DNA of 64,000 nucleotides. It comes from a virus (lineage: Duplodnaviria; Heunggongvirae; Uroviricota; Caudoviricetes). Below are positions 1 to 53,572 of the stretch, in pieces. A program made the position numbers and the translations under genes. The DNA lies in IMG/VR virus record IMGVR_UViG_3300040810_000833, positions 1 through 64,000 of that record. One strand, 5' to 3'. The notes beneath the pieces were generated by a model. The model made no database searches and was not told the DNA's origin. It was given only the letters and a program-made list of their open reading frames with translations. Each line of letters starts with the position of its first letter. Position 1 is the stretch's first letter.

Positions 1-58
1 CGTTTTCAACCGGCCGCAGCAATCGGGCGTCTGCGGCCAGCCCATCGAACATAATTCA
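1..58 (-). repeat. Family-A repeat, truncated copy A1: first hairpin segments only (accggccgcagc ... ctgcggccagccc)
   Basis: Matches the core of copies at 476-620, 1168-1311 and 1738-1872; lies immediately downstream of the minus-strand ORF 56..343. Confidence 0.6.
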
Positions 59-343
59 GTAGCAACCCCAGCTTTCATCATCATAATCGTCATCATCAAA
101 AAGCCTATTTTCTCGACAGTCCATAGATGGATCAAGTCGAATTCCGCCAGATAGGCCAACATCTTTACCAGTCACAACGTGCATGTGTGAACCAGACGCC
201 CATTCTTTCGCCTTTTCTAGGGAAGTAAATACGGCAACTGGCTCTCCGTAGCCGTCATGGCAATAGCCCTCAAAGACAATGAATACTTCGACCGTTTCTT
301 TCACGGTGAGTTCGCGAATTATCTGTTCAGTTTTGCTTGACAT
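56..343 (-). CDS. hypothetical small protein (95 aa), acidic C-terminus
   Basis: ORF on the strand shared by neighbouring genes; family-A repeat directly downstream of its stop. Confidence 0.4.
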   Translation of the reverse strand: MSSKTEQIIRELTVKETVEVFIVFEGYCHDGYGEPVAVFTSLEKAKEWASGSHMHVVTGKDVGLSGGIRLDPSMDCRENRLFDDDDYDDESWGCY

Positions 344-475
344 AAAGACATTTCCCTCGACAAGATTTTTTGTATCCGTGGTTCAATCATACTCCTATTA
401 TCGGATATTGTCAACTACAATATTGAATGTTTTCTACTGAATTCTTATTTCATAAAAAGCCAGAGTTCTTGATTT

Positions 476-620
476 TGAGAATTTCTGGCGTCGTCTCGCT
501 GCGGCCGGTCCTTCGGCCGTTTTTCACCGGCCGCAGCGATCAAGCGTCTGCGGCCAGCCCATTCCCAGAATTGAGAAAATCCCCGCCGCTTTTCTCGGCG
601 GCGGGAATTCTGAATCTTAG
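476..620 (-). repeat. Family-A structured repeat copy A2 (~145 bp)
   Basis: Three mutually complementary segments gctgcggccgg (498-508) / ccggccgcagc (527-537) / ctgcggcc (548-555), then a GC hairpin ccccgccgcttttctcggcggcggg; the stop of gene 617..1018 lies at the repeat end. Confidence 0.8.
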
Positions 621-1018
621 AACAGCCTTTTCGGACGTCCCTTCGATACCGCACCGTCGACAAATTCTTCAAACTCGATCGATCCGGAGGATTCCACTTG
701 CTGGGCATAAATCGCAATTCTACGCTCACGTTCCTCACGGTGAGAAACGGAAGCCCTGTCACTGTTCAGCTTTTCCAGTCTCCGGAAAACCCGGTTTCCA
801 CTTACCAGCTCTCCGCTATTGTCCCGGATATCTTCCGGGAGATATTCCTGAGGAAAGTCGAGAGAAGCGAGAAAAACCAGTCCGGTATCTGCCATTAATG
901 CAGAGTAACTTCCGAAGCCCAAGTATGGCTGGCTTGAATCACCACGGACATCATCAATGGTTTTGATCAATTGTGTCATTTTCGTTTTCCCGTCAGGAGC
1001 AAAAGAAACAAAATTCAA
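617..1018 (-). CDS. hypothetical protein (133 aa)
   Basis: Minus-strand ORF whose stop codon abuts repeat A2; the overlapping plus-strand ORF 427..966 is judged spurious. Confidence 0.5.
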   Translation of the reverse strand: MNFVSFAPDGKTKMTQLIKTIDDVRGDSSQPYLGFGSYSALMADTGLVFLASLDFPQEYLPEDIRDNSGELVSGNRVFRRLEKLNSDRASVSHREERERRIAIYAQQVESSGSIEFEEFVDGAVSKGRPKRLF

Positions 1019-1167
1019 CTAAGGGGAGTCTATGCTATGTATCGACATAATGGAATGCCGAAAGCATCATTTTCGGAAAGTTTTCTGGAAAAGTACAAGC
1101 CACATCAGCCGGATTTTATGTCAAGCATCTTTTTTGATTTTTCCCATTTATGGGAGAGTTTTCCGGT

Positions 1168-1311
1168 TTCTGAGAATTTCGTTGTTCTGTCCTGCTGCGG
1201 CCGACTATCGGCCTTCTTTCAGTCGGCCGCAGCAATCAGGCGTCTGCGGCCAGCCTATCCCCAAGATTGAGAAAATCCCCGCCGCTTTTCTCGGCGGCGG
1301 GAATTAAGTCA
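1168..1311 (-). repeat. Family-A structured repeat copy A3
   Basis: gctgcggccga (1192-1202) / tcggccgcagc (1221-1231) / ctgcggcc (1242-1249) plus hairpin 1275-1299; the stop TGA of the upstream minus gene is at 1309-1311. Confidence 0.8.
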
Positions 1312-1566
1312 GAACCCGCTATGATCTTCCCAGAACTGAGAGCGGCACCCTGCGTCGACATACGCCCCGTATGTTTCTGTAGCCGACTCCTCGTTGTTAC
1401 TTTCAGGAACTTTCCCGTCATCATAGCAGAATCGACAGTAATGATCTTTACGAGTCCTTCCTCGTTTTCCAGGGTATTCGTCGACGTAACATGATTCGCC
1501 GAAATTGATACGCTCGCCACAGTTGACACACATACGGGAACGTTCTGCAGAAACTTTACGAGCCAT
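1309..1566 (-). CDS. small zinc-ribbon protein (C-x2-C ... C-x2-C), ~85 aa
   Basis: ATG at 1566 is preceded by TGGAG at 7-nt spacing; sequence CVNCGERINFGESCYVDEY...CRFCYDDG; the longer ORF 1309..1641 lacks an RBS. Confidence 0.5.
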   Translation of the reverse strand: MARKVSAERSRMCVNCGERINFGESCYVDEYPGKRGRTRKDHYCRFCYDDGKVPESNNEESATETYGAYVDAGCRSQFWEDHSGF

Positions 1567-1568
1567 CA

Positions 1569-1737
1569 ATTCGCTCCAAAAAGAACAGGGGGAAACACAA
1601 ACCACCGAGAATATACCATACATATCGACAGAACACCACAACGAATAAACAAAAAACTCAATATTATCAAATTATTCCAATAATTCAGAGCTTGAAATAT
1701 TCCCAAACATAAGACAAGTTTCCCGAGTCTGGGAATT
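1569..1737 (-). promoter_or_regulatory. AT-rich putative promoter/leader region for the zinc-ribbon gene
   Basis: ~170 bp of AT-rich non-coding DNA between repeat A4 and the gene start; no precise -35/-10 assignment possible. Confidence 0.25.
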
Positions 1738-1872
1738 TTGAATTTTCTCTTGTTCTGTCCTGCTGCGGCCGACCATCGGCCTTCTTTCAGTCGGCCGCAG
1801 CAATCAGGCGTCTGCGGCCAGCCTATCCCCAGAATTGAGAAAATCCCCACCGCTTTTCTCAGCGGCTGGGCG
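1738..1872 (-). repeat. Family-A structured repeat copy A4 (second hairpin degenerate)
   Basis: Near-identical to A3 over ~110 bp. Confidence 0.8.
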
Positions 1873-1926
1873 GGTGCTGACAATCAGCAACACACAACGA
1901 ACGAAAAGGCCGCACAGCCTTAACGA

Positions 1927-2055
1927 TTAACAACGTCGTGTACTTTGCCGCACAACCAAACGCCACAAATCAGGGCGTTCAGAACGCAGGCCGGGCAACC
2001 CGACACGCTTGATAATTTCCCGTATTTCCTTTTTTTGTCTTGATCGTATGTCCAT
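1927..2055 (-). CDS. hypothetical small basic protein (~42 aa)
   Basis: Internal ATG at 2055 is preceded by GGAAG at 7 nt; the ORF table gives a longer version, 1927..2118. Confidence 0.3.
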   Translation of the reverse strand: MDIRSRQKKEIREIIKRVGLPGLRSERPDLWRLVVRQSTRRC

Positions 2056-2328
2056 GCTGCAACTTCCTATAAAGTAAACTTGGCAATGGGATTGTACTTG
2101 TTTATCGGCAGGACACAACTCATTTATTCAGGGAAATCTCTTTTTTACTGGAAAAGTGGGGTCAATAGATAATAAGCAATTTCCCGAAAATTAGAGAGTT
2201 TTCTTGGTTTTGATAATCCACGCCGTCTCGCGGCGGCTGACACAGCAGCTTACACGGGTCAGCCGCTGCGATGAGGCATATTCGGGCACACCACATAATG
2301 GAGAGTCTTGTTGTATTGATCGTTCACG

Positions 2329-2399
2329 TACCGTTCCGTTGCGGTTATTTTCTTCAGCCTCCCATCCTGCTGGCTGATCGGCCGAATGCAGGAAACTCA
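2329..2399 (-). repeat. Family-B repeat copy B1 (degenerate stem)
   Basis: gttgcggttatttt-cttcagcc...ctgctggctgatcggccgaatgcaggaaactca; the upstream gene's stop (tca, 2397-2399) lies inside the conserved 'gaaactca' end. Confidence 0.7.
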
Positions 2400-2681
2400 G
2401 CCCTTGGAGACGTCCCAGTGTCGGCATTCCCACGTTGACTGGGTTGTGTATGGATTTCCGTGCTGTTTTGTAACAGCCAGCCTCTGGATGCTTTCTCTGC
2501 TGCTATTCAGTTTCTGACCCCTCAGTAGAAACGAGAAAGCACTCGGATTGATTTCGCGACGTTCCTTACCACGCATAATGAAGAATTCCGGAGGATCAGA
2601 AACCCCATTCCACTGATGAACTGACCAGAGAAGAATGAAGTCGTCAAAATGGAAGAACCGCATTTTGTAGATGCTGTGCAT
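2397..2681 (-). CDS. hypothetical protein (94 aa)
   Basis: ORF ending in repeat B1 in the same way as other B-associated genes. Confidence 0.4.
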   Translation of the reverse strand: MHSIYKMRFFHFDDFILLWSVHQWNGVSDPPEFFIMRGKERREINPSAFSFLLRGQKLNSSRESIQRLAVTKQHGNPYTTQSTWECRHWDVSKG

Positions 2682-2766
2682 GATAAACCCTCAAGAGTTA
2701 GACAACAGAAAACCACCAACGGGACCTTACCGGAAGTATCGGCAAATGTCCAGGCCTAACTTAAAA

Positions 2767-2782
2767 GAATTCTGCAGAATTC
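2767..2782. promoter_or_regulatory. Perfect 16-bp palindrome GAATTCTGCAGAATTC (operator-like)
   Basis: Read directly from sequence; a second identical copy is at 3638-3653 and related copies sit in C-family leaders. Confidence 0.5.
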
Positions 2783-2801
2783 TCGGTTTTGTCTGAATTG
2801 T

Positions 2802-2869
2802 CGTTTCGTTGCGGTTATTTGCTTCAGCCGACCAGCCTGCTGGCTGATCGGCCGAATGCGGGAAACTCA
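2802..2869 (-). repeat. Family-B repeat copy B2
   Basis: Imperfect hairpin gccgaccagcc-tgc-tggctgatcggc; stop of gene 2867..3052 is at the 'aactca' end. Confidence 0.8.
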
Positions 2870-3052
2870 TTTGCTATCCATCATTTGCTGATGGATATTG
2901 TCTCGGTGATCCGCATCGTCCCTGATTTCCTGCCAGAACTCTTCCCAGTCGTTCGCAAGCTGTTGTTCACGCTGGCGTTCTGCAAGCCATTCTGAATATG
3001 CTACGCACTCTTCCAGGTCTTCACACTGCAGGGAGATATCGAAACTCGACAT
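2867..3052 (-). CDS. small acidic protein (61 aa), paralog of 3739..3939
   Basis: ~70% aa identity to the 66-aa paralog (FDISLQCEDL..AYSEWLAER...DWEEFWQEIRD...NIH.QMMDSK). Confidence 0.6.
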   Translation of the reverse strand: MSSFDISLQCEDLEECVAYSEWLAERQREQQLANDWEEFWQEIRDDADHRDNIHQQMMDSK

Positions 3053-3185
3053 TCTTACAACTCCTTCAGAATTTCAATCGGGTACTGACGATCAGTACCA
3101 ACAACAGCATCATGACTAACATCGGCAGGCCTTGCAATCCATCTGGACACAATTCCGGGAGATTTTTGAGATTTGGGAATAGTTT

Positions 3186-3254
3186 CCGCCCCGTTGCGGT
3201 TATTTGCTTCAGCCGACCAGCCTGCTGGCTGATCGGCCGAATGCAGGAAACTCA
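3186..3254 (-). repeat. Family-B repeat copy B3
   Basis: Same core as B2; stop of gene 3252..3563 is inside the 'aactca' end. Confidence 0.8.
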
Positions 3255-3563
3255 ATCTAGTTCGATCGTGTACTCTACTGCACGGATATATCTGTGAAGT
3301 TTGTCCCCGATCTCTGTAATCGTTCTGCCGGTTACTCTACCGACAGACAGGAAACGTTTGATTGAGTCAGCAGCACGATTCCTGACCGTCCCATGCGTAC
3401 CGTCTTCGCTTTCAAGCAGGGAAGTGTTCGCTGCTTCATACTGTCGGACGCTTTTCGAATACCATCCATCGTTTTCTGTCCCGCAGAAGATTCTCGCAAG
3501 AGTCTCCCCGGCAGAATTCACAACAGTAACACGCAGAGCCATTGAGTACATGGTTAACTCCAT
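3252..3563 (-). CDS. hypothetical protein (103 aa)
   Basis: ORF on the minus strand between the duplicated B modules. Confidence 0.45.
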   Translation of the reverse strand: MELTMYSMALRVTVVNSAGETLARIFCGTENDGWYSKSVRQYEAANTSLLESEDGTHGTVRNRAADSIKRFLSVGRVTGRTITEIGDKLHRYIRAVEYTIELD

Positions 3564-3637
3564 TCTGGATTTTTAACAAAAGGCCACATGCAGGAACTTA
3601 CCAGAAGTATCGGCAGCTGTCCAGGCCTAGCTTGAAA

Positions 3638-3653
3638 GAATTCTGCAGAATTC
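3638..3653. promoter_or_regulatory. Second copy of the 16-bp palindrome GAATTCTGCAGAATTC
   Basis: Read directly. Confidence 0.5.
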
Positions 3654-3671
3654 CAGATCCTAGAAATTGTT

Positions 3672-3741
3672 TCCGTTTCGTTGCGGTTATTTGCTTCAGC
3701 CGACCAGCCTGCTGGCTGATCGGCCGAATGCGGGAAACTCA
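3672..3741 (-). repeat. Family-B repeat copy B4
   Basis: Identical core to B2. Confidence 0.8.
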
Positions 3742-3939
3742 TTTGCTATCCATCATCTGCCGATGGATGTTGTCTTCGTGCTCTGATTGGTCCCTGATTT
3801 CCTGCCAGAATTCCTCCCAGTCTGTAGCGAGCCGTTCCTGCCTTTTCCGTTCAGCGAGCCATTCGGAATAAGCTTCGCAATCAGACAGATCTTCACACTG
3901 CAATGAGATATCAAACGTACACAAACCGAGCATATCCAA
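3739..3939 (-). CDS. small acidic protein (66 aa), paralog of 2867..3052
   Basis: Paralogy plus the same downstream B repeat. Confidence 0.6.
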   Translation of the reverse strand: MDMLGLCTFDISLQCEDLSDCEAYSEWLAERKRQERLATDWEEFWQEIRDQSEHEDNIHRQMMDSK

Positions 3940-4063
3940 ACTCCGTTAGGGTTTCAGAATGTTGCTTACAATCAGCAACAGGATCAGCATTAGAATCAAC
4001 ATCGACCAACCTTGCAATCCACCTTGACACAATCCCGGAGAATTCCAGAGATTGGAAATTGTC

Positions 4064-4128
4064 TCCGCTTCGTGGCGGTTATTTGCTTCAGCCGACCAGC
4101 CTGATGGCTGATCGGCCGAATACAGGGG
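4064..4128 (-). repeat. Family-B repeat copy B5 (3' end diverged)
   Basis: gtggcggttatttgcttcagccgaccagcctgatggctgatcggccgaat. Confidence 0.7.
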
Positions 4129-4167
4129 TTACAATCATCACGAGCCTTGTGGTATTTTCAAATTACA

Positions 4168-4239
4168 CTCCGCTCCGTTCCGGCTTGCATCATCCAGACT
4201 GCCTGGGCAGGCAATCCGGCTTCTGCGGCTAACTCACTA
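4168..4239 (-). repeat. Family-C repeat copy C1
   Basis: ccggcttgcatca.ccagactgcc-NNG-ggcaggcaatccggc, i.e. outer stem ccggcttgc/gcaatccgg with inner stem ctgcc/ggcag and a 3-nt loop; stop of gene 4237..4443 at the 'aactca' end. Confidence 0.8.
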
Positions 4240-4443
4240 TCCGTTATTCAGTTCCTTCAGTGTCTCTCGCAACCGGGCGATCAGTAGGGGGCTGACTGGG
4301 ATTCTGATGCTTACCTGTGTCCCGTCCTCCTCGATGAAATCCAGGTGGATGCCAGGCCCGTCAGAACCACTCATCGACTCGAACACATAAGGACTGTACT
4401 CACTTGGTAACTCAACCGTCTTCTGGACTTTCACCTTCGCCAT
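4237..4443 (-). CDS. 68-aa protein, family-C gene copy 1
   Basis: Paralogs at 4612..4818 and 5412..5621 (VELPS.YSPYVFESM.GSDG.G..LDF.EEDGT.V..RIP..P.LIA.L...L). Confidence 0.6.
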   Translation of the reverse strand: MAKVKVQKTVELPSEYSPYVFESMSGSDGPGIHLDFIEEDGTQVSIRIPVSPLLIARLRETLKELNNG

Positions 4444-4506
4444 TTCGCTTGCTCCCGTAGGTAGGTTATCGTCGGGACTGCCTGAAGTCCAGGCTGTTCC
4501 CAGGGT

Positions 4507-4540
4507 GAATCCTGCAGAATCTCACAATTGAGAATCTGCG
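4507..4540. promoter_or_regulatory. Operator-like imperfect inverted repeat gaatcctgcagaatctcacaattgagaatctgc in the leader of the family-C gene
   Basis: Recurs at 4883-4912, 5310-5340 and 5684-5712; PstI-core palindrome related to the B-unit 16-mer. Confidence 0.45.
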
Positions 4541-4544
4541 GTCG

Positions 4545-4614
4545 TCGTCTCGTTCCGGCTTGCATCAGCCAGACTGCCTCGGCAGGCAATCCGGCCTTTG
4601 CAGCTAACTCACTA
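4545..4614 (-). repeat. Family-C repeat copy C2
   Basis: As C1, loop tcg. Confidence 0.8.
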
Positions 4615-4818
4615 TCCGTTGTTCAGTTCCTTCAGGGTGTCTTGGAGTCGGGCAATCAGTAGGGGGCTGACTGGGATTCTAACGCTTACCTGCGTTCCAT
4701 CCTCCTCGATGAAATCCAGGTGGATTCCAGGTCCATCAGAACCGCTCATCGACTCAAACACGTAAGGATTGTAGTCTCCGGGCATGTCCACGATCTTTTG
4801 CACTCTCATCTTCGCCAT
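4612..4818 (-). CDS. 68-aa protein, family-C gene copy 2
   Basis: ~80% identity to copy 1. Confidence 0.6.
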   Translation of the reverse strand: MAKMRVQKIVDMPGDYNPYVFESMSGSDGPGIHLDFIEEDGTQVSVRIPVSPLLIARLQDTLKELNNG

Positions 4819-4920
4819 TCGCTCGCTCCCGTAGGTAGGTTATCGTCGGGACTGCCTGAAGTCCAGGCTAGTCTCCGGGAAAGTTCTGCAGAATCTCACA
4901 ATTGAGAACCTGCAATCATC

Positions 4921-4996
4921 GTGCCGTTCCGGCCTTGCATCAGCCAGACTGCCCCGGCAGGCAATCCGGCCTCTGCGGCCAACTCAATTCAGTCTA
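4921..4996 (-). repeat. Family-C repeat copy C3
   Basis: As C1, loop ccg; follows the unrelated gene 4994..5209. Confidence 0.8.
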
Positions 4997-5209
4997 GTGC
5001 TGGCACCGATTTTCAAACTCAGTAATGAACCAGCCACGAGCGTTTAGGGCTTCGTCTGCGGTGCATCCGTCGGCAAGGCAACCGTCTTGCACGTTCAGAG
5101 AATAAGACGCCATGCACTCTTCAGGGCTTTCGTAGCAGTCGATCTGGTCCAGTGCTATTAGCAGGTTGCTGTCGACATGCTGTTGAATTGTCTGCTCGTG
5201 CCTGCTCAT
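4994..5209 (-). CDS. hypothetical acidic Cys-containing protein (71 aa) inserted in the C array
   Basis: ORF with its stop at the start of C3; no similarity to the 68-aa family. Confidence 0.45.
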   Translation of the reverse strand: MSRHEQTIQQHVDSNLLIALDQIDCYESPEECMASYSLNVQDGCLADGCTADEALNARGWFITEFENRCQH

Positions 5210-5349
5210 TGCTGTCGCCTTTCGTGGTTTGTGTTTGCTTTGGTGTTCGTGCCTCGCATGTACGCACTATATCGTCGGGACCGCTTGAAGTCCAAGCCGT
5301 TCCCCGGTTGAATCCTGCAGAATCTTACAATTGAGAACCTGCAATCGTC

Positions 5350-5414
5350 GTGTCGTTCCGGCTTGCATCAGCCAGACTGCCCCGGCAGGCAATCCGGCTT
5401 CTGCGGCTGACTCA
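5350..5414 (-). repeat. Family-C repeat copy C4
   Basis: As C3. Confidence 0.8.
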
Positions 5415-5621
5415 GTCATTCTCTGTGGATGTTCTCAGTTTCTCTTTCAATAGGGCAATCAACTCCGGCGTGATCGGGATTCTGACATTGACCGTTGTAC
5501 CGTCTTCCTCGGTGAAGTCTAGGCTGACGCCCATCCCGTCGCTGCCGTGCATCGATTCGAAGACATAGGGGCTGTAATCGCTGGGTAGCTCAACCATCTT
5601 GTGGATTTTGATTTTTGACAC
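5412..5621 (-). CDS. ~69-aa protein, family-C gene copy 3 (GTG start inferred)
   Basis: Aligns with the paralogs from a GTG at 5619-5621 (VSKIKIHKMVELPSDY vs MAKVKVQKTVELPSEY); an ATG at 5596 is the alternative start; the longer ORF 5412..5786 runs through repeat C5 and is rejected. Confidence 0.5.
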   Translation of the reverse strand: MSKIKIHKMVELPSDYSPYVFESMHGSDGMGVSLDFTEEDGTTVNVRIPITPELIALLKEKLRTSTEND

Positions 5622-5714
5622 TCGTTGCTCCCGTATGTAAGTTATCGTCGGGACCGCCTGAAGTCCAGGCTGTTCCCCGGTTGAATCCTGCAGAATCTCA
5701 CAATTGAGAAACTG

Positions 5715-5770
5715 CGATCGTCGTTTCGTTCCGGCTTGCATCAGCCAGACTGCCCCGGCAGGCAATCGGG
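5715..5770 (-). repeat. Family-C repeat copy C5 (3' part diverged)
   Basis: cgtttcgttccggcttgcatcagccagactgccccggcaggcaatcgggc. Confidence 0.7.
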
Positions 5771-6230
5771 CTAGTAGGGGAGGCACGGACGAGAGGGTGG
5801 TGGTTTTTCGTTCAAATTCAGTACCGTATTGGTCAGTATTTTCTCCGAGGGGGGTTCACCCACCACTCCCCCACCAAAATCAAATTGTACTACCCAAACT
5901 AGCCTACTCACCTACAAAGCATAAATCAGGCTATTACCGTCCCATGAGACTATTCAAGTCCCGATGGTTCGCAAAGTGCTAACTGGTAAGCGACGTTTCA
6001 ATAGTGTCTCATTACGTTGCGGTGACAAGCCTAAGTCACGATATTCGCGGTCTACGGCGACATATCCTCTATTACTAGAACGCCCTATTGCCCTGTCTCG
6101 CCGGATTGATTAGTTCCGGCGTACCAACTTCCAGCCATCCTCTAGCTCTGTCCTGCTCACTCTGAGAGGCCCGAATGCGGTCAACACGGGAAAGCTTAAC
6201 GCCGCATATTTCAGAACAGTCCTTCGATTC

Positions 6231-6656
6231 TTAGCACTCTTTTGGGGCGAGAATTGCCGCCCACGCAGGAACTCCTCGACGGAGTCTGCCTCTTAGTACA
6301 TCATAGCTAACAACGCATCGTTCGTCTCTGCTCCACTCTGAAATTGTCTTACTTTCTCCAAAACATTCAATAAATACGTTATCGACTCTATTGTTTGCAT
6401 TTTCAAGCAGGCTGACAACTCTAAGATTCTCGCGAGTATTATTGAGTCGATCTTTATCGATATGGTCTACAATCAAATCCGGGTCTGTAACGCCCAGGAC
6501 AAATCGATGCATCCGAACTTCTTTTCCTCGAACCTTAGTTAAGGCATATCCTTGGCGGTAATACCAGCTATGTCTTTTCACAGATTCGTAGTCTTGAGTA
6601 CTAACTTTTGCGAATTTTCCACCCGCATTTGCTCCATTTAAACGAATTTCAAGCAT
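6231..6656 (-). CDS. HNH homing-type endonuclease (HNH_3/AP2-like)
   Basis: HRFVLG...DHIDKDRLNNTRENLRVV...ENANN motif pattern. Confidence 0.75.
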   Translation of the reverse strand: MLEIRLNGANAGGKFAKVSTQDYESVKRHSWYYRQGYALTKVRGKEVRMHRFVLGVTDPDLIVDHIDKDRLNNTRENLRVVSLLENANNRVDNVFIECFGESKTISEWSRDERCVVSYDVLRGRLRRGVPAWAAILAPKEC

Positions 6657-6805
6657 TTTATTTTCCTTCTTGGGGGTATAATACTTTATCTTTTACTGAA
6701 AGTGGAAAAACATGAAAGCAATTCCAGAAAGCGGCGTCTCTGAAATGGTTAAAGCAGATTTATCTGTTCCAGACCCGCCAACAAATATAGCAATGGGAAT
6801 AATTA

Positions 6806-7303
6806 ATGAGCCCAACACAAGAGCAGATAAAGACGATCCTAAGAGTAATTGATAGGATTGCTCCGTCTTACGTATTTGGATTCTACGAAGTTGACGACAT
6901 AAAACAGGAGTCATACATTATATGCCATGAAGCACTACAGAGGTGGGATCAAATCCGTCCTTTGGAAAATTTCTTATCAAAAAACCTATCAAATCGACTG
7001 AAAACGCTGATTAGGGATAGGTACTCAAGGGCGACGACTACGTCGGCAAGGCATGCTGAGCTTAATGAAAGAAAGAAACGACTTGTTGACTTGAGACCGG
7101 CAAGCGGAAATTATGAACCTGTTAAAGACTTTGAGAGCGTAATGTTGACAAGAGAAGCAATTGAGCATGCGAGAACAAAAGTTGACCCAAAAACAAGGAA
7201 CGACTTAGATCGAGTACTTAGCGGGGTTTCAATCCCAGCAGTAAAAAGAAGAAGACTTTACAACAAAATACGGGAGATCTTAGGTGAAAGTTGGACGCCT
7301 TAG
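6806..7303 (+). CDS. sigma-70-family-like protein (putative phage sigma factor)
   Basis: Region-2-like IKQESYIICHEALQRWD; C-terminal segment AVKRRRLYNKIREIL is possibly HTH-like. Confidence 0.4.
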   Translation: MSPTQEQIKTILRVIDRIAPSYVFGFYEVDDIKQESYIICHEALQRWDQIRPLENFLSKNLSNRLKTLIRDRYSRATTTSARHAELNERKKRLVDLRPASGNYEPVKDFESVMLTREAIEHARTKVDPKTRNDLDRVLSGVSIPAVKRRRLYNKIREILGESWTP

Positions 7304-8349: not shown

Positions 8350-8958
8350 ATGGCTCGCGTGTTAGTAGCTTGTGAATTTAGCGGAATTGTAAGAGACGCC
8401 TTTCGCAAACGAGGTCATGATGCATGGTCTTGCGACTTAGAACCAGCAAGCGAATCGCAATACAGTCAATTTCATCTTCATCAAGACGTAAAGGGGGTTC
8501 TTGATCAGAAGTGGGATATTATCATTGCCCATCCTCCATGCACATATCTTTCTAATTCTGGAGTATGTCATCTACATACGCAAGAAGGAAGATGGGAGCG
8601 GATGAATGATGGTTGTGATTTCTTTAGCCTGTTTCTAAACCTAGACTGCGAAAAGGTTTGCATTGAGAACCCAATTCAGCACAGGTATGCTAGAGAGAGA
8701 ATAAGAAAATACGATCAGATAATACAGCCCTACCACTTTGGGCATCCAGAAAGTAAGGCTATTTGTTTATGGCTCAAGGGTCTTCCTCCATTAGTTCATA
8801 CTAATGATGTAAAAGCCTATATGATGACTCTTCCAAAAAAAGATCGTCAAAGAAATCATTACATGAGTCCAGGTAAAGACCGTGGCAAGTTGCGAAGTAT
8901 CTTTTTCACCGGAATAGCAGATGCTATGGCAGAACAATGGGGAGGTCAAAATGAATGA
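8350..8958 (+). CDS. minimal C5-cytosine-methyltransferase-like protein (motifs FSG / PPC / ENP)
   Basis: VLVACEFSGIVRDAF (motif I-like), IIIAHPPCTYLSNSG (PC motif IV-like), CIENPIQH (ENV motif VI-like); 202 aa with no evident target-recognition domain. Confidence 0.45.
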   Translation: MARVLVACEFSGIVRDAFRKRGHDAWSCDLEPASESQYSQFHLHQDVKGVLDQKWDIIIAHPPCTYLSNSGVCHLHTQEGRWERMNDGCDFFSLFLNLDCEKVCIENPIQHRYARERIRKYDQIIQPYHFGHPESKAICLWLKGLPPLVHTNDVKAYMMTLPKKDRQRNHYMSPGKDRGKLRSIFFTGIADAMAEQWGGQNE

Positions 8959-10228
8959 TTTTTCAGTAAAAATAGGAAGGCGAAGTTTACTAAAGGCTGG
9001 ATTTCTTGCTGCTGCAATGCCAAAGATTTTCGCGGACATTAAGGATTTTGAGAGCGTTGAGGGTCCAGCCAAAAGTGTAATCTTTATCTATCTACCTGGC
9101 GGTATTGCCGCACAAGAAAGTTTTGACCCGAAACCATTAGCCCCTACTGAGTACAAGGGTGCTATGAGTAGCATCCAAACAAGTATTCCGGGTGTGTTTT
9201 TCAATGAAAAACTCGCAATGACATCAAAGCTTGCTGATAAGCTCACGATAATTCGAAGCATGACTCATGGAGAGGCTGCACATGAGCGTGGAACGCATAA
9301 TGTTTTTACTGGCTACAGACCGAGTCCAGCACTCAGCTATCCATCGATCGGCTCAGTTGTTAGTCATGAATTTGGCTCTAGAAACAATCTTCCCCCTTAT
9401 ATTTGCATTCCTAACAAACCAAATGAATTCGCTGGCACTGGTTATCTCAGTAGTTCCTATGGTGCTTTCAGTTTAGGTTCTGACCCCGCTAGAGATGACT
9501 TTAAAGTTAGGGATCTTGCAAGCGAAATTGGAAATGCGAGGTTCTCAAGACGTCGAAGCACGCTGGATTTGATAAACGGCGGCTTCATAGAAGAGAACAA
9601 AAACGCCGACAATGTCAACGCCATGAATTCATTTTACGAAAGGGCGTATGAGCTTATCTCAAGCGTGGAGGCACAAGAGGCATTTAAGCTAGAGAAAGAG
9701 TCCGCAGAGACGCGAGAAAGATACGGGAAAAACACAGCTGGAGCAAGAATGCTTCTTGCCCGCAGACTTGTAGAAGCTGGTGCAAGGTTTGTGACACTAA
9801 CATACGGAAGTTGGGATATGCATGACGATATCGCCAACGGAATTAACAAACAGATGCCGTCATTCGACCAAGGGTTTTCTGCCCTAATCTCCGATCTCTC
9901 TGATAGAGGTATGTTTGACTCTACGATGGTTTGTGTTGTTTCTGAGTTTGGCAGGACTCCAAAGATTAATAACACTTCTGGGAGAGATCATTGGCCCCGA
10001 GTATTTAGTTCAGTCCTCGCGGGCGGTGGATTTAAGGGCGGGATGGTGTATGGTAAATCAGACTCTACTGGTTCAGAGCCAGAAGAGAACGCCGTGGAAA
10101 TACCGCACTGGGCCGGAACTATCTACAGTCAAATTGGAATAAATCCAGATAAAGAGTTGATGGCTCCTGGTGATAGACCTATCGAAATAGTTGACTTCGC
10201 CAAGGTCATTAAAGAAATAATTCAATGA
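8951..10228 (+). CDS. DUF1501-family protein with a twin-arginine (Tat) signal
   Basis: RBS GGGAGG then ATG 8951; GRRSLLKAGFLAAAMP Tat motif; C-terminal RDHWP...GGGFKGGMVYGKSDSTGSEP typical of DUF1501 (sulfatase-like fold). Confidence 0.7.
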   Translation: MNDFSVKIGRRSLLKAGFLAAAMPKIFADIKDFESVEGPAKSVIFIYLPGGIAAQESFDPKPLAPTEYKGAMSSIQTSIPGVFFNEKLAMTSKLADKLTIIRSMTHGEAAHERGTHNVFTGYRPSPALSYPSIGSVVSHEFGSRNNLPPYICIPNKPNEFAGTGYLSSSYGAFSLGSDPARDDFKVRDLASEIGNARFSRRRSTLDLINGGFIEENKNADNVNAMNSFYERAYELISSVEAQEAFKLEKESAETRERYGKNTAGARMLLARRLVEAGARFVTLTYGSWDMHDDIANGINKQMPSFDQGFSALISDLSDRGMFDSTMVCVVSEFGRTPKINNTSGRDHWPRVFSSVLAGGGFKGGMVYGKSDSTGSEPEENAVEIPHWAGTIYSQIGINPDKELMAPGDRPIEIVDFAKVIKEIIQ

Positions 10229-18795: not shown

Positions 18796-21204
18796 ATGAC
18801 AGTAAAATTAGGTAATAGAGTCAAAGAATCAACCCTCACGTCTGGCACCGAGAGCATTGTTCTTGCTGGAGCAATCCCTGGGTATCAAGCGTTTTCTTCT
18901 GTTCTTTCTAGCGGCGATCAAACCTTTTACACGATTGAAAACACTCCCAACTGGGAGGTTGGCGTCGGTACATTCCTTGGAGGGGTAATTTCCCGAGATG
19001 AGGTCCTTAGCAGCTCCTCTGGCGGCTCCAAGATTTCATTATCAGGTCAGAGTTATATCTTCATCGCTTATCCGTCAGAAAGATCAGTTCGCCTTGACTC
19101 TAACGGTGCCGTTTTTGCGAAAGACGGTATTTATTTAGAAACAGGGGTGCCTATAGGCACAGGAAACGCTCTGTACAATAACCAAGGAAATCTGTACTTT
19201 AATGGGTCTCTTATTGGTGGCTCTGGGACAGCTTATAGTGCTGGCGACGGGATTGATCTCTCCGGCACGCAGTTTAGCGTAGACGGTACAGTAGCTAGGT
19301 CTGGTGACAGCATCAGCATATTTTCAAATGATTCTAGGTACACCGTTTTGCCAGCCGGTGGCACAGCGGGTCAAGAATTGTATAAGGTTGCAGACACAGG
19401 CGTTGATGTTGCTTGGAAAGACAACTATTCTGTCGAGCTAAGAGAGGTGGCTCAAAACGATACAGCCAGCGATATAACCAGGGGTACACTTGTTATGTCA
19501 GACGGTGCTTCTGGCGATACAATAAAAATCGCACCGGCTGTTACAAATGGGTCTGTTGAAGCTAGGTATATCCTTGGTCTTGCCACTGAAACAATCCCAG
19601 CCAACGGTGGTCGGGGTGATGTTACATTTTTTGGCCCGTTTAAAGGATACGACACAAGCCTGTACAGCGTTGGCACCGTGCTTTATAACGACCCGAACAA
19701 CGACGGCCAACTAAGTTCTTCGGTTCCAACCTCGCCAGAACTCTCTATGTCTGTGGCTATAGTTACTAAGGTCGGGAATAGCTCTTCTGGTAGATTGTTT
19801 GTTAGGATGTGGACGCAACAAGAAGGGCTTCATGAACTACATGATGTTGCGATCGATGCGGCTTCTAGTGGGGACGGCATTAAGTACACAGGATCAACCT
19901 GGGTTCCTGATTCCAACTTGATTCACAGCGGAGACAACGTTAGCGTGCTCAACAATGACGCCGGGTACCTGACTTCGCATCCGTCGGTTTCTGCCGCAAG
20001 CGGCAGCGACAACTCCGGCAGAACATATATACAGGACGTATTCCTCGACCAATACGGGCACGTAACCGAGCTTGTAACAGCGACAGAGACCGTGGTAGAC
20101 ACAGACACGACCTATACTGCAGGCACCGGACTGTCGCTGGTCGGGACTGAATTCAATATCGACCAAACAGTCGTGCAGTCCGGAGACAACGTTAGCGTGC
20201 TCAACAATGACGCCGGGTACCTGACTTCGCATCCGTCGGTTTCTGCCGCAAGCGGCAGCGACAACTCCGGCAGAACATATATACAGGACGTATTCCTCGA
20301 CCAATACGGGCATGTAACCGGGCTTGTAACAGCGACAGAGACCGTGGTAGACACAGACACGACCTACACTGCAGGCACTGGACTGTCGTTGGTCGGGACT
20401 GAGTTTAGTATTGACTCTTCAGTTCTTCAGTTTTCTGACTTGACTTCTGGATCTATTACTTCAGGCACAGGAGATATAGATTTATCCCAAGGGTCTACAG
20501 GAGATGTATTAACTCAACAGAGCGACGGATCATTAGCTATGTCCGCTCCCGCAGGCGGTGGAATCGGCGGCAGCACTGGGGCCACGGATAACGCAGTGTT
20601 GCGGGCTGATGGCACTGATGACAAAACGCTACAGGGGTCGGTGGCCACGATTGATGACGCCGGAAATCTGACAGCGGCAAAGTTATCTGCGGTTAGTTTT
20701 GTGCAGACAAACTGGGGCTGGTTTTATCGCGGAACCACCGCAATGATGACGCTTGATCCTAATCGAGTTAGGGTAAACAACTTCCCAATCACCGGGCTGT
20801 CGCAGCTCAATTGGAGCACTCCGGGCCAGGTTGATCTGCAACCAGTCGCAGCGGATCATCTGTCACAGCATCGCAGCACCAACCCCCAGACGTTTTCGAT
20901 CGCCAACACCTACACCAGCACCACAAGTTATGAACGTCTAGAAATCGGCTGGGATACGAACGTTGCGACAATCAACACGACGGCGGGTAGTGCTGGAGGT
21001 GCAGTTCGAGATCTACACATACAAAACTGTATAAAGATCAACGGTCAAAATGAAGCGGTCGAAGAAATCGTTTTCAAGGTCTATTCTGACGCAACTCGCC
21101 CCGCAGCAGGCACTGCTGGTCGGATAATATACAACTCGGATGATGGCAACCTGAATATCGACAACGGCACCAACTGGATTCTGCCTGACGGAACTACAAC
21201 GTAA
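18796..21204 (+). CDS. fibre protein with tandem repeats (head or tail fibre)
   Basis: 802 aa, Ser/Thr/Gly-rich; contains two near-identical 84-aa units plus older diverged copies (GDGIDLSGTQFSVDG / GTGLSLVGTEFNID). Confidence 0.5.
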   Translation: MTVKLGNRVKESTLTSGTESIVLAGAIPGYQAFSSVLSSGDQTFYTIENTPNWEVGVGTFLGGVISRDEVLSSSSGGSKISLSGQSYIFIAYPSERSVRLDSNGAVFAKDGIYLETGVPIGTGNALYNNQGNLYFNGSLIGGSGTAYSAGDGIDLSGTQFSVDGTVARSGDSISIFSNDSRYTVLPAGGTAGQELYKVADTGVDVAWKDNYSVELREVAQNDTASDITRGTLVMSDGASGDTIKIAPAVTNGSVEARYILGLATETIPANGGRGDVTFFGPFKGYDTSLYSVGTVLYNDPNNDGQLSSSVPTSPELSMSVAIVTKVGNSSSGRLFVRMWTQQEGLHELHDVAIDAASSGDGIKYTGSTWVPDSNLIHSGDNVSVLNNDAGYLTSHPSVSAASGSDNSGRTYIQDVFLDQYGHVTELVTATETVVDTDTTYTAGTGLSLVGTEFNIDQTVVQSGDNVSVLNNDAGYLTSHPSVSAASGSDNSGRTYIQDVFLDQYGHVTGLVTATETVVDTDTTYTAGTGLSLVGTEFSIDSSVLQFSDLTSGSITSGTGDIDLSQGSTGDVLTQQSDGSLAMSAPAGGGIGGSTGATDNAVLRADGTDDKTLQGSVATIDDAGNLTAAKLSAVSFVQTNWGWFYRGTTAMMTLDPNRVRVNNFPITGLSQLNWSTPGQVDLQPVAADHLSQHRSTNPQTFSIANTYTSTTSYERLEIGWDTNVATINTTAGSAGGAVRDLHIQNCIKINGQNEAVEEIVFKVYSDATRPAAGTAGRIIYNSDDGNLNIDNGTNWILPDGTTT
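19930..20433 (+). repeat. Near-perfect 252-bp tandem duplication (2 units) inside the fibre gene
   Basis: Units 19930-20181 and 20182-20433 differ at only a handful of positions. Confidence 0.9.
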
Positions 21205-50542: not shown

Positions 50543-51005
50543 GTTGCTTGATTCTTATCTTTGCTCTCTTGATTAATTGCGAAACTCTTGTATTGCTTAT
50601 CCCAAGGTTTGAAGCTACTTCTCTATGCGTGAGCCCGTTGTATTTCATAGTCACCACACGCCTTAGATCCGGTTCGGCGTCAGGGCCAACAAAATCTTCA
50701 AGATCGAGATGCTCTTCCGAATAACCACAATTAAAGGCGGATTCGATTGATAAAATTTTCTTGGAAGATTTGCCTGCTCTTGCAATTTCTTTGAGCATCG
50801 CGTTTCTAGATACATGGTAAACAAATGTTGTTTCTGCCCCCCTCGATCTGTCATATTTTTCCACGTTTTCAATTAAAGCCAAAAAGCCAGACTGGGCCAA
50901 GTCGTCGGGATGGTTCGAGTCATCACTTAGCTTGTGTGCAATACTCCATACTAGGTCACTATGTCTTTCAATTAACTCATGTGATTTCATTAAAAATCTC
51001 CTCAA
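50535..51005 (-). CDS. ECF-type sigma-70 family sigma factor
   Basis: Region 2 (DLAQSGFLALIENVEKYD) and region 4 HTH (REVASNLGISNTRVSQLIKRAKIRIK). Confidence 0.75.
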   Translation of the reverse strand: MRRFLMKSHELIERHSDLVWSIAHKLSDDSNHPDDLAQSGFLALIENVEKYDRSRGAETTFVYHVSRNAMLKEIARAGKSSKKILSIESAFNCGYSEEHLDLEDFVGPDAEPDLRRVVTMKYNGLTHREVASNLGISNTRVSQLIKRAKIRIKQHA

Positions 51006-53562: not shown

Positions 53563-53572
53563 AAATTACCCC

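What the first reader, a model, noticed from the sequence alone, without database searches (positions are those of the whole stretch)
1..5790. Repeat-punctuated array of 12 or more tiny minus-strand genes: a candidate host-takeover / anti-defence locus with its own cis-regulatory grammar
Three unrelated families of 65-145-bp conserved non-coding elements (A x4, B x5, C x5) each sit immediately 3' of a small minus-strand gene (42-133 aa). In most copies the stop codon of the upstream gene falls inside the conserved end of the element, ...aactca, where tca reads TGA on the minus strand. Each family carries a conserved stem-loop and each family is tied to a different set of genes. Gene families are duplicated (61/66-aa acidic pair; 68-aa triplet), and an unrelated gene is inserted between units. 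This looks like a rapidly evolving early region, anti-defence or host shut-off, in which every gene is its own terminator/processing-site-bounded cassette. I do not recognise any of the encoded proteins or the repeat families.
Basis: partly seen in the sequence, partly recalled or inferred. Interest (0 to 1): 0.75.

Follow-up and report, generated by a model that had tools for sequence, protein, structure and literature searches.

The report
Repeat-bounded early gene cassettes of phage
This is the start of a 16-kb early region of an uncultured phage. Dozens of tiny orphan genes are separated by very conserved hairpin-plus-promoter blocks, and related strains differ by gene cassettes gained, lost or moved at those blocks, much like the promoter/stem-loop cassettes (PeSLs) known from T4-type phages.

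Summary
The repeats are real, statistically secure and confined to window 1-5790. That stretch is only the first third of an array of at least 16 kb and more than 30 genes, which runs on beyond window position 1.

The three families are not unrelated. B and C are homologous: they share 28 invariant columns and the same hairpin, with three compensatory pairs. A shares a motif with C.

Each 170-360-nt spacer is composite. It holds a stop codon, a 12-14-bp GC hairpin, a shared ATTCTCA or palindromic box, a sigma-70-type promoter and a ribosome-binding site. Family A has a canonical terminator before its hairpin. The promoters match the consensus in the distal array and are degenerate in B and C.

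The hairpins are supported by covariation. Their G.U pairs fit only the gene-sense strand.

The spacers are 92-98% identical between strains, against 78-92% for the genes (dS 0.3-1.8). The 70-nt A core also recurs in phages that carry entirely different genes.

Strains differ by cassette deletion, translocation and replacement. The two junctions I traced lie inside A cores.

Best reading: these are terminator/attenuator-promoter cassettes that also serve as recombination substrates, functionally like T4 PeSLs, in an unrelated phage lineage. All the proteins are ORFans under purifying selection, and an anti-defence role remains untested.

The parts
5622..5790 (-). C copy 1. It follows a 440-nt leader, not a small gene. 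Hairpin core 5728-5771; second hairpin/palindrome 5690-5715; promoter-like TGGACT-17-TAACTT 5639-5667; then SD and the GTG start of g68c.
5412..5621 (-). g68c, 69 aa, a member of the triplicated family.
5210..5411 (-). C copy 2. Core 5355-5398; hairpin 2 at 5317-5342; promoter-like TGGACT-17-TATAGT 5266-5294.
4994..5209 (-). g71, an unrelated 71-aa ORFan between C copies. It is absent from strain L140.
4819..4993 (-). C copy 3. It has a 1-nt insertion and an in-frame stop, which break the open frame that runs through the other C copies, so the element is non-coding.
4612..4818 (-). g68b, 68 aa.
4444..4611 (-). C copy 4. Core 4552-4595: a 12-bp hairpin AGCCGGAUUGCC/GGCAGUCUGGCU with two G.U pairs. 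Hairpin 2 at 4514-4539; promoter-like site 4463-4491.
4237..4443 (-). g68a, 68 aa.
3940..4236 (-). Compound spacer: the 5' half of a C copy (4176-4236, core 4177-4220) fused to B copy 5 (core 4075-4120), an ATTCTC box at 4030-4046, and a tiny hydrophobic ORF at 3946-4002.
3739..3939 (-). g66 (probable ATG at 3930), acidic helical family.
3564..3738 (-). B copy 4. Invariant 46-nt core 3683-3728: a 12-bp hairpin GGCCGAUCAGCC/GGCUGGUCGGCU. Perfect palindrome GAATTCTGCAGAATTC 3638-3653; promoter-like TGGACA-17-TAAGTT 3595-3623.
3252..3563 (-). g103, ORFan, dN/dS 0.19 against L140.
3053..3251 (-). B copy 3. Core 3196-3241, plus a tiny hydrophobic ORF at 3066-3122 (MLVMMLLLVLIVSTRLKF) that ends just before the SD of g61.
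2867..3052 (-). g61, acidic. The model is a single long helix (pLDDT 82.6).
2682..2866 (-). B copy 2. Core 2811-2856; palindrome 2767-2782; promoter-like TGGACA-17-TAAGGT 2724-2752.
2397..2681 (-). g94, ORFan.
2056..2396 (-). Spacer holding a diverged B copy 1 (2289-2396) and a degenerate A-like hairpin (2222-2293).
1927..2055 (-). g42. In strain L140 a 149-aa gene sits between the same flanks.
1750..1926 (-). A copy 4: intrinsic terminator T1 at 1845-1869 (its wobble pairs work only on the sense strand) and A core at 1754-1825.
1309..1566 (-). g85, zinc-ribbon-like (CxxC...CxxC), dN/dS 0.12.
1182..1308 (-). A copy 3: T1 at 1277-1301 and A core at 1186-1257.
617..1018 (-). g133 (or 120 aa from the ATG at 979).
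486..616 (-). A copy 2: T1 at 581-605 and A core at 490-561.
386..414 (-). Sigma-70 consensus promoter TTGACA-17-TATGAT (11/12), 42 nt upstream of the g95 start.
56..343 (-). g95. This cassette is absent from strains L002 and L133, and the junction lies inside the flanking A cores.
1..55 (-). A copy 1. It has a core only, no T1, and is cut by the window edge. The array continues at least 10 kb beyond it.

Best explanation
Window 1-5790 is the promoter-proximal third of a hyperplastic early region of at least 16 kb, an 'ORFanage', in an uncultured phage. The phage has a genome well over 64 kb, possibly about 146 kb, and has DnaE, RecA, RNR and its own sigma factor.

Almost every small gene or gene pair is followed by a composite regulatory cassette of 170-360 nt.
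- The 5' part is transcribed as the 3' end of the upstream message. It folds into a very stable GC-rich hairpin: a 12-bp stem in B and C, and a 13-14-bp stem in the A core, which in most A copies is preceded by a canonical intrinsic terminator. This part is inferred to stop or attenuate read-through and to stabilise or process the upstream message.
- The middle carries a box shared by all families (ATTCTCA, or the palindromes GAATTCTGCAGAATTC and GCAGATTCTCA-ATTG-TGAGATTCTGC). This is inferred to be a regulator site.
- The 3' part is a sigma-70-type promoter, then a Shine-Dalgarno sequence and the start codon. It is inferred to restart transcription by host RNA polymerase.

Because the cassettes are long, near-identical direct repeats, homologous recombination between them duplicates, deletes, moves and replaces the genes they flank. 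That exchange is shown by comparing strains.

In function this matches the promoter-early/stem-loop (PeSL) cassettes of T4-type phages, but it has arisen in an unrelated lineage and in a more elaborate form.
For: Shown:
- The repeats are confined to the array and all lie in one orientation.
- Hairpin z-scores are -4.2 to -5.0.
- In the A core, the helix formed by segments 2 and 3 is 97.8% paired. It has 4 pairs and 15 cells with compensatory changes, against 0 for every slid control within 2 columns (one pair at +3). The alternative helix of segments 1 and 2 shows no covariation, and it breaks exactly where segment 2 varies.
- The B and C hairpins are homologous and show 3 compensatory pairs.
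- All wobble pairs in B, C and the variant T1 are G.U on the gene-sense strand.
- T1 sites are canonical terminators.
- In the distal array, 14 of 14 promoter sites scoring at least 11/12 are on the gene strand, most of them about 34-43 nt from a start codon.
- The B1 spacers (those before g103 and g94) carry a degenerate but homologous promoter, TGGACA-nnTGCCGATAC-TAAGKT.
- TTCTCA occurs in 15 of 26 long spacers across all families. ATTCTC is about 5 times more frequent there than in the rest of the window.
- 46% of the array is non-coding.
- Between the window strain and L140, spacers are 86-98% identical and their hairpin cores 92-98%, while coding sequences are 78-92% identical with dS 0.3-1.8.
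- The A core is near-invariant in L126, L111 and L129, which share no flanking genes with the window phage.
- The g95 cassette is missing from two independent contigs, with the junction in an A core and a chimeric flank. The g83 cassette is translocated in L002. In L140, g76, g105 and g149 stand in place of g71, two g68 copies and g42.
- Relatives with 78% TerL identity have non-homologous but analogous 128-nt units of hairpin plus TTGACT-TATAAT promoter.
- PeSLs are described as running from a stop codon through a stem-loop and a sigma-70 promoter to the SD, as lying in hyperplastic regions, and as mediating indels (PMC2839356 and PMC4122927).
Against: - There are no transcript data, so termination, processing and promoter activity are all inferred.
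- The B, C and A-core hairpins have no U-run on the sense strand, so they are not canonical terminators.
- In most A copies a good terminator already precedes the A core, so the core needs another explanation.
- Promoter-like sites in B and C score at most 9/12, and by the scan's thresholds they are no more frequent than chance in 1-7000 (9 found against 7.0 +/- 2.8).
- In the B2 spacers (those before g61 and g66) the candidate promoter overlaps the start of a conserved tiny ORF. Both cannot be used as annotated.
- Sequence conservation of the cores, near 100% across copies and phages, is far tighter than a generic terminator needs. This points to a sequence-specific partner or to ongoing gene conversion.
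- The host and its promoter and terminator rules are unknown.
Confidence: 0.6

Rival explanations
1. The B and C blocks, and perhaps all blocks, are transcribed as long polycistronic early RNAs. The conserved hairpins would then be endonuclease (RNase III or RNase E type) processing sites that cut the RNA into stable single-gene messages ending in a 3' hairpin, as in the T7 early operon. They would not be terminator-promoter units.
For: - The hairpins lack U-runs.
- B and C lack consensus promoters.
- The tiny ORFs overlap the candidate B2 promoters, which implies transcription coming from upstream.
- The tight sequence conservation would fit recognition by a specific nuclease.
- The resemblance to the T7 R sites is from my own knowledge and was not tested.
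Against: - The stems are 12-14 perfect base pairs. That is shorter than the roughly 20 bp, with internal loops, typical of RNase III substrates (own knowledge).
- No phage RNase III was found among the ORFs scanned.
- The distal array clearly has one strong promoter per unit.
- This reading does not explain why A carries a separate canonical terminator.
Confidence: 0.2
2. The ultra-conserved cores are recognition sites for a dedicated trans-acting factor, or are themselves functional RNAs. Candidates are an operator or RNA-binding site used to shut early genes off together, a cis-acting RNA switch that uses the alternative pairing of A-core segments 1:2 versus 2:3, or abundant decoy RNAs.
For: - The cores evolve roughly ten times more slowly than synonymous sites.
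- The cores are conserved in phages with different cargo genes.
- The A core has two nearly isoenergetic folds. The minimum-energy fold picks segments 1:2 plus a small hairpin in one variant and segments 2:3 in another.
- Segment 1 is invariant although it is unpaired in the fold that covariation supports.
- Palindromic boxes are shared next to the promoters.
Against: - No candidate factor was identified.
- No Rfam family matches.
- Gene conversion among repeats could produce the same conservation without any specific partner.
Confidence: 0.12
3. The repeats are selfish mobile DNA of the MITE, REP/BIME or homing-target type that has spread between genes. The adjacent HNH endonuclease might be involved.
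For: - There are many near-identical copies.
- An HNH_3 endonuclease gene sits at the head of the array in the three strains where that end was seen.
- The A core occurs in unrelated gene contexts.
Against: - All copies are in one orientation, lie at the same place relative to stop and start codons, and are restricted to one region.
- None occurs elsewhere in the 64-kb window or in the replication-module loci.
- No terminal inverted repeats or target duplications were seen.
- No transposase or RAYT was found among the ORFs scanned.
- None of the 120 stored hits to a loose A-core pattern in bacterial and archaeal genomes carries the rest of the element. That scan was noisy and capped.
Confidence: 0.05
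4. An integron-like array in which the repeats are attC-type recombination sites for a site-specific recombinase.
For: - Small cassettes are each followed by a 60-140-nt element that forms a hairpin.
- A stop codon lies inside the conserved element end, which contains GTT.
- Cassette content varies between strains.
Against: - No tyrosine recombinase was found among the ORFs scanned.
- The element ends do not form the RYYYAAC/GTTRRRY inverse-core pairing (sequence inspection).
- The cassettes carry their own promoters.
- The two traced junctions lie within long homologous cores, as expected for homologous rather than site-specific exchange.
Confidence: 0.02

Closest known systems
PeSL (promoter-early stem-loop) regulatory cassettes of T4-type phages (Arbiol et al. 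2010, PMC2839356; Comeau et al. 2014, PMC4122927)
   Same: - Repeated intergenic motifs run from the stop codon of the upstream gene through a stable stem-loop and a sigma-70-like early promoter to the SD and start of a downstream ORFan.
- They are concentrated in hyperplastic regions.
- Indels, replacements and shuffling between related phages have their endpoints in the motifs.
   Different: - The phage lineage is unrelated: TerL is at most 28% identical to any cultured phage.
- The units are 170-360 nt, much longer than PeSLs (from memory some tens of nt; the length was not checked in the papers).
- The hairpin is a separate module, at least 50 nt and often more than 100 nt upstream of the -35 element, rather than overlapping the promoter.
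- There are extra modules: a separate terminator T1, a three-segment A core, and palindromic boxes.
- The hairpins belong to sequence families that are nearly invariant, even between phages with different genes.
- The units form one contiguous array of at least 16 kb that is 46% non-coding.
- Neither promoter nor terminator activity has been tested here.
Host-takeover module of Bacillus phage SPO1 (described in PMC6873191, which cites Stewart et al. 1998)
   Same: A terminal cluster of about 12 kb holding about 26 small early genes, with strong promoters and ribosome-binding sites typical of highly expressed genes. Many of their functions are unknown.
   Different: - No conserved repeat families or hairpin cores between the genes are described in the passages I read.
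- SPO1 genes are grouped into operons.
- The toxic or takeover functions of SPO1 genes were shown by experiment. Here nothing is known about function.
RNase III processing sites of the T7 early operon
   Same: Mutually similar hairpins lie between consecutive small early genes that are transcribed by host RNA polymerase. They leave each message with a stabilising 3' stem.
   Different: - T7 sites are longer, irregular stems in one polycistronic RNA made from three upstream promoters.
- Here the stems are 12-14 perfect base pairs, and most units in the distal array have their own promoter.
- Cleavage has not been tested.
Integron cassette arrays (attC sites)
   Same: Arrays of small, mostly orphan genes, each followed by a structured repeat of 60-140 nt, with cassette content that varies between strains.
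   Different: - No integrase was found.
- There are no attC core sites.
- The cassettes have promoters.
- The traced exchange junctions look homologous rather than site-specific.

Membership tests
PeSL-type regulatory cassette | The repeated intergenic motif contains a sigma-70-like early promoter. | tested here: inconclusive
   Met in the A-type and distal spacers: 14 sites score at least 11/12, all on the gene strand, most about 34-43 nt from a start codon, and window 386-414 scores 11/12. In B and C only degenerate sites were found (TGGACA-17-TAAGTT and TGGACT-17-TAACCT, at most 9/12), which by count do not exceed chance. Activity was not tested.
PeSL-type regulatory cassette | The motif contains a stable stem-loop able to terminate or attenuate upstream transcription. 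| tested here: inconclusive
   The stem-loops are present and supported by covariation. T1 in family A is a canonical terminator. The B, C and A-core stems lack a U-run. Termination cannot be measured with these tools.
PeSL-type regulatory cassette | Located between the stop codon of one gene and the SD and start of an ORFan, in a hyperplastic region. | tested here: met
   Every protein scanned lacks an informative Pfam or PHROG assignment.
PeSL-type regulatory cassette | Insertions, deletions and replacements between related phages have their endpoints in the motifs. | tested here: met
   The g95 deletion in L002 and L133 and the g83 translocation in L002 have junctions within A cores. For the replacements in L140, the homology blocks begin and end in or next to repeat-bearing spacers.
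PeSL-type regulatory cassette | Occurs in T4-type myoviruses, as a compact unit in which the stem-loop overlaps or abuts the promoter. | tested here: not met
   TerL is at most 28% identical to any cultured phage, and none of the listed matches is T4-like. The hairpins lie at least 50 nt and often more than 100 nt upstream of the -35 element, and the units are 170-360 nt.
Intrinsic (Rho-independent) terminator | A GC-rich stem-loop immediately followed by a U-run on the transcribed strand. | tested here: met
   Met for T1 of A copies 2-4 (581-605, 1277-1301, 1845-1869) and for more copies in L096. Not met for the B, C and A-core hairpins on the sense strand. The A core does carry a small hairpin plus U5 on the antisense strand.
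Integron / attC cassette array | A tyrosine recombinase (IntI) with attI next to the array. | tested here: not met
   The gene at the head of the array is an HNH_3 endonuclease. No integrase domain was found in the ORFs scanned, though not every ORF of the window was scanned.
Integron / attC cassette array | attC with complementary R'' (RYYYAAC) and R' (GTTRRRY) core sites at its two ends. | tested here: not met
   By inspection of the spacers, TGAGTT at the 5' end has no complementary partner at the 3' end, and the sequences do not fit the core consensus.
MITE / REP-BIME type mobile repeat | Dispersed copies in both orientations across a genome, with terminal inverted repeats, target duplications or an associated transposase (RAYT). 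| tested here: not met
   The copies lie in one orientation and one region only. There are no terminal inverted repeats or target duplications. The hits in genome contigs were chance matches.
RNase III processing site (T7 early type) | A double-stranded stem of about two helical turns that is cleaved by RNase III in a polycistronic transcript. | not testable with these tools
   The stems are 12-14 bp. Cleavage and transcript structure need experiments.
Known RNA families (Rfam 15) | A match at the gathering score. | tested here: not met
   There are no matches in the window at gathering score. At E<=1 there are only two weak chance-level hits.

The most novel reading that the evidence does not exclude
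On this reading the nearly invariant hairpin cores are not generic terminators. The strongest case is the 70-nt, three-segment A core, which is kept in phages that share none of the flanking genes and which changes about ten times more slowly than synonymous sites. The cores would be recognition sites of a dedicated system. One possibility is an RNA switch or protein-binding site that times and shuts off the whole early programme. Another is a gene-conversion or recombination mechanism that actively mobilises orphan-gene cassettes, making this a viral, integrase-independent counterpart of an integron.
Probability: 0.15. Interest if true: 0.75.

Novelty: new variant of a known kind. Interest (0 to 1): 0.45.

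Why it matters
Modular early regions bounded by promoter/stem-loop repeats have been documented in detail mainly for T4-type phages. This locus shows the same evolutionary device in an unrelated, uncultured phage lineage, and in an extreme form:
- the region is at least 16 kb and nearly half of it is non-coding;
- the regulatory blocks are better conserved than the genes they flank;
- the blocks are shared between phages with different cargo genes.

This suggests that repeat-mediated cassette exchange is a general way for large phages to turn over accessory early genes, a class that often includes host-takeover and anti-defence genes.

The locus also offers a defined set of short elements (T1, A core, B/C hairpin, ATTCTCA box, promoter) that can be synthesised and tested.

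The unexplained sequence-level conservation of the cores is the part most likely to hide new biology.

Tried and rejected
- **tRNA and Rfam.** There are no tRNAs and no Rfam family in the window.
- **DNA searches of the phage collection.** Both blastn and megablast against the cultured and deposited phage collection gave no match.
- **Core patterns in IMG/VR.** Three scans gave no match. The arrays were reached instead through exact-protein look-ups and one metagenome scan.
- **Genome-contig scan.** I scanned for a loose A-core pattern. It says only that no multi-copy array turned up.
- **A coding frame through C.** An open frame runs through four C copies. I rejected it because copy 3 has a frameshift and an in-frame stop.
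- **Integron/attC reading.** Rejected: no integrase, no core sites, and the cassettes have their own promoters.
- **CRISPR-like or solitary-repeat reading.** Rejected because the 'spacers' are 200-400-nt genes and the stems are far longer than those of CRISPR repeats. It was not tested against host arrays, because the host is unknown.
- **Helix of A-core segments 1:2.** It shows no covariation, and it breaks where segment 2 varies.
- **Structure prediction.** g68 gave a low-confidence model (pLDDT 60.7) and g61 a single long helix. Neither is suitable for a fold search, so none was run.
- **The 440-nt leader (5791-6230).** It is not unusually structured (z = 0.33).
- **Host identification.** This failed. 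The only hint is a DUF1501 gene; that this family is typical of Planctomycetota is my own knowledge.

Full report
**1. The observation**

- Twelve credible genes lie on the minus strand of window 1-5790. They are g68c, g71, g68b, g68a, g66, g103, g61, g94, g42, g85, g133 and g95.
- Between them lie three families of direct repeats.
- Core patterns of each family match four times at up to 3 mismatches. All matches are on the minus strand and none appears in 100 shuffles.
- A repeat search of the whole window finds these families nowhere else in the 64 kb.
So are the 61/66-aa pair, the 68-aa triplet and the 71-aa gene inserted between C copies.
- There is no tRNA and no Rfam family.

**2.

- Exact-protein look-ups recovered contigs of the same phage population.
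- L001, L096 and L094 are 99.97-100% identical to the window where they overlap. They extend the array about 10 kb beyond window position 1.
- A composite built from the reverse complement of window 1-6300 plus L096 is 16.2 kb. It holds 33 called genes and is 46% non-coding.
- At least eleven A elements occur in this one phage.
- The window ends inside a module of minus-strand replication and nucleotide-metabolism genes: DnaE, DnaB, primase and RecA, with PhoH and RNR just beyond it. A phage sigma factor lies at 50535-51005.
- The plus strand from 6806 carries terminase and structural genes.
- So the array occupies the place of an early region. It is read away from the late operon.
- I could not join the array to the replication module by sequence overlap.
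- The phage has no cultured relative. TerL identity is at most 28%, and DNA searches gave no match.

**3. Anatomy of the spacers**

Read on the gene strand, every long spacer has the same order of parts.

(a) *The stop codon.* In B and some C copies it lies inside or next to a conserved TGAGTT.

(b) *A GC-rich hairpin.*
- B has a 12-bp stem, GGCCGAUCAGCC/GGCUGGUCGGCU. It sits in a 46-nt core that is identical in three copies and has one mismatch in a fourth.
- C has a 12-bp stem, AGCCGGAUUGCC/GGCAGUCUGGCU.
- A first has, in most copies, a canonical intrinsic terminator, CCCGCCGCC-GAGAAAA-GCGGCGGGG-AUUUUCUC. A 70-nt core follows.
- That core has three segments, GGCCGCAG...CUGCGGCC...GGCCGCAG.

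(c) *A box shared by all families.*
- The forms are ATTCTCA, the perfect palindrome GAATTCTGCAGAATTC in B, and the hairpin/palindrome GCAGATTCTCA-ATTG-TGAGATTCTGC in C.
- TTCTCA is found in 15 of 26 long spacers. ATTCTC is about five times more frequent there than in the rest of the window.

(d) *A sigma-70-type promoter.*
- In the distal array the consensus is TTGACAATG(A/C)CGATAAnnATTGTATA(A/C)T.
- Fourteen sites score at least 11/12, all on the gene strand, and most lie about 34-43 nt from a start codon.
- Window 386-414 is one such site.
- The B spacers before g103 and g94 (B1 type) keep a recognisable but weakened version, TGGACA-nnTGCCGATAC-TAAGKT.
- C has TGGACT-17-TAnnnT.
- By count, the weak sites in 1-7000 do not exceed chance. 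Promoter function in B and C is therefore only inferred.

(e) *A Shine-Dalgarno sequence and the start codon.*

**4. Are the hairpins real structures, and on which strand?**

- RNA folding gives z-scores of -4.2 to -5.0 against shuffles.
- For the A core I aligned 21 distinct copies from several phages.
  - The helix of segments 2 and 3 is 97.8% paired.
  - It has four pairs and 15 cells with changes on both sides.
  - Slid controls within 2 columns have none, and a slide of +3 has one pair.
  - The four-base extension of the stem occurs as GACU/AGUC, GGU/ACC, GAUA/UAUC, GAUC/GAUC and GGUC/GACC.
- The alternative helix of segments 1 and 2 never covaries. It loses a pair exactly where segment 2 changes. 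It is nevertheless nearly as stable, and it is the minimum-energy fold of one variant.
- Segment 1 is invariant and remains unexplained.
- B and C align with each other over 28 invariant columns, so they are diverged versions of one element. Their stems differ by three compensatory pairs.
- A shares GCCGCAGAnGCCnGAT with C, and the A model detects C copies weakly.
- All wobble pairs in B, C and the variant T1 are G.U on the gene-sense strand. On the other strand they would be C.A mismatches. The structures therefore act in the sense RNA or, less likely, in that DNA strand.
- On the antisense strand each A core also reads as a small hairpin followed by U5. The A element may therefore insulate against transcription from both directions.

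**5. Conservation**

- I compared the window strain with L140, a strain 82-95% identical in its homologous blocks.
- The hairpin cores are 92-98% identical and the rest of the spacers 86-98%. The coding sequences are 78-92% identical.
- The genes have dN/dS of 0.11-0.24 and dS of 0.3-1.8.
- So the genes are real and under purifying selection. The spacers change roughly ten times more slowly than synonymous sites.
- A metagenome scan for the A core found arrays in other phages. L126, for example, has 11 copies.
- In L126 only the repeats align to the composite array by blastn, and the genes between them do not. L126 also has its own B-like family.
- A covariance model of the A core found copies only in these arrays. 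It found none in the rest of the window, in the replication-module loci, or in 80 IMG/VR loci of TerL relatives. Most of those IMG/VR loci do not reach the early region.
- Two relatives with 78% TerL identity that do reach it have analogous but non-homologous units of about 128 nt, made of a hairpin plus TTGACT-N16-TATAAT.

**6. Recombination**

- The g95 cassette is absent from L002 and L133. The two homology blocks overlap by about 98 nt, which is the A core. The single remaining element joins the upstream flank of one A copy to the downstream flank of the next.
- In L002 the g83 cassette sits at a different place in the order, again with A cores at the junctions.
- L140 has one g68-type gene instead of three. 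It lacks g71, has g76 and g105 instead, and has a 149-aa gene where the window has g42. Each of these sits between conserved spacers.
- This is the behaviour described for PeSLs in T4-type phages (PMC2839356, PMC4122927).

**7. The proteins**

- The window proteins and ten distal proteins have no informative Pfam or PHROG hit. The only hits are a borderline zinc-ribbon hit, a borderline hit of g95 to a PHROG of unknown function, and three PHROG hits among the distal proteins. Two of those three are to families of unknown function.
- Homologues of g68 and g61 exist only in this phage group: four each among 5.8 billion sequences.
- The g61/g66 family has further very acidic paralogues in the distal array. 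Its model is one long helix.
- The g68 model is of low confidence.
- Nothing supports or excludes an anti-defence role. The analogy with the SPO1 host-takeover module (PMC6873191) is only positional.

**8. Verdict**

- The best-supported reading is a PeSL-like system of composite terminator/attenuator-promoter cassettes, which also drive cassette shuffling by homologous recombination.
- It occurs in a new phage lineage and in a more elaborate, more sequence-constrained form.
- The main open point is why the cores are conserved at the sequence level, and what segment 1 of the A core and the shared ATTCTCA box bind.
- The rival readings are RNA processing sites, sites for a trans-acting factor, mobile repeats and attC-like sites. 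I rank them in that order.

Noticed in passing
window 3066-3122 (-) and 3946-4002 (-); L140 2317-2370, 2938-2994, 3806-3862: There are tiny hydrophobic ORFs of 17-18 aa (MLVMMLLLVLIVSTRLKF, MLILMLILLLIVSNILKP, MTALMLLLMLMFSVKYN). Each ends at a stop followed directly by the SD, 8-10 nt before the start of an acidic g61/g66-family gene or of g105. Differences between strains are conservative. Shuffles of the 16-kb array give 0.6 such ORFs. They may be small membrane peptides or leader peptides paired with the acidic proteins, and they overlap the candidate B2 promoters.
   Followed up: partly
window 2222-2293 (-): A degenerate fifth A-like hairpin (covariance model score 38 bits) lies in the long spacer between the last B copy and g42, at the boundary between the B and A blocks.
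   Followed up: partly
window 490-561, 1186-1257, 1754-1825 (+ strand reading); L096 A cores: On the antisense strand every A core reads as a small GC hairpin followed by a U-run (CGGUCCUUCGGCCG-UUUUUAA or GGCCGACUAUCGGCC-UUCUUUC). This looks like a terminator for antisense transcription, so the A element may be a bidirectional insulator.
   Followed up: partly
window 5791-6230: A 440-nt non-coding leader lies between the HNH endonuclease gene and the first C copy. It is 95% conserved in strain L140, is not unusually structured (z = 0.33), and has no clear consensus promoter.
   Followed up: partly
window 6231-6656 (-): An HNH_3-type endonuclease gene sits at the head of the array in the three strains where that end was seen (this phage, L140 and L142). 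Any link to the repeats is unknown.
   Followed up: no
window 50535-51005 (-): The phage encodes an ECF-type sigma factor (Sigma70_r2 plus r4) within the replication module. This would fit a switch from host-sigma early promoters to phage-sigma later promoters.
   Followed up: no
window 51332-55390 (-): The DnaE-type polymerase is split into two ORFs. One carries PHP plus the NTPase domain (53573-55390) and the other the finger plus HHH domains (51332-52894). An RNase_T-family exonuclease ORF (52891-53562) lies between them.
   Followed up: no
window 8921-10228 (+): A full-length DUF1501 gene (E = 2e-107) lies between the small-terminase region and the large terminase. It may be a host-derived auxiliary gene, and it is the only hint to the host (possibly Planctomycetota, from my own knowledge).
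   Followed up: no
window 19929-20431 (+): There is a 252-bp tandem duplication at 94% identity inside the 802-aa ORF at 18796-21204. It gives an in-frame repeat of 84 aa in a probable structural protein.
   Followed up: no
L096 8400-10900 (distal array, outside the window): The distal early region contains a tRNA-Lys (9289-9361) and a 144-nt tRNA match with an insert of about 70 nt (9736-9879, found by Rfam only). Several more GGTTCGAATCC-type tRNA-like fragments lie between strong promoters, but neither tool calls them.
   Followed up: partly
L094 10508-10630 vs L096 8449-8456; L142 (146-kb contig ends 116 nt after the g69 gene): Several assemblies of this phage break inside the array or differ there by about 100-nt indels. 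Repeat-induced assembly errors are therefore possible, and cassette orders should be confirmed with long reads.
   Followed up: no
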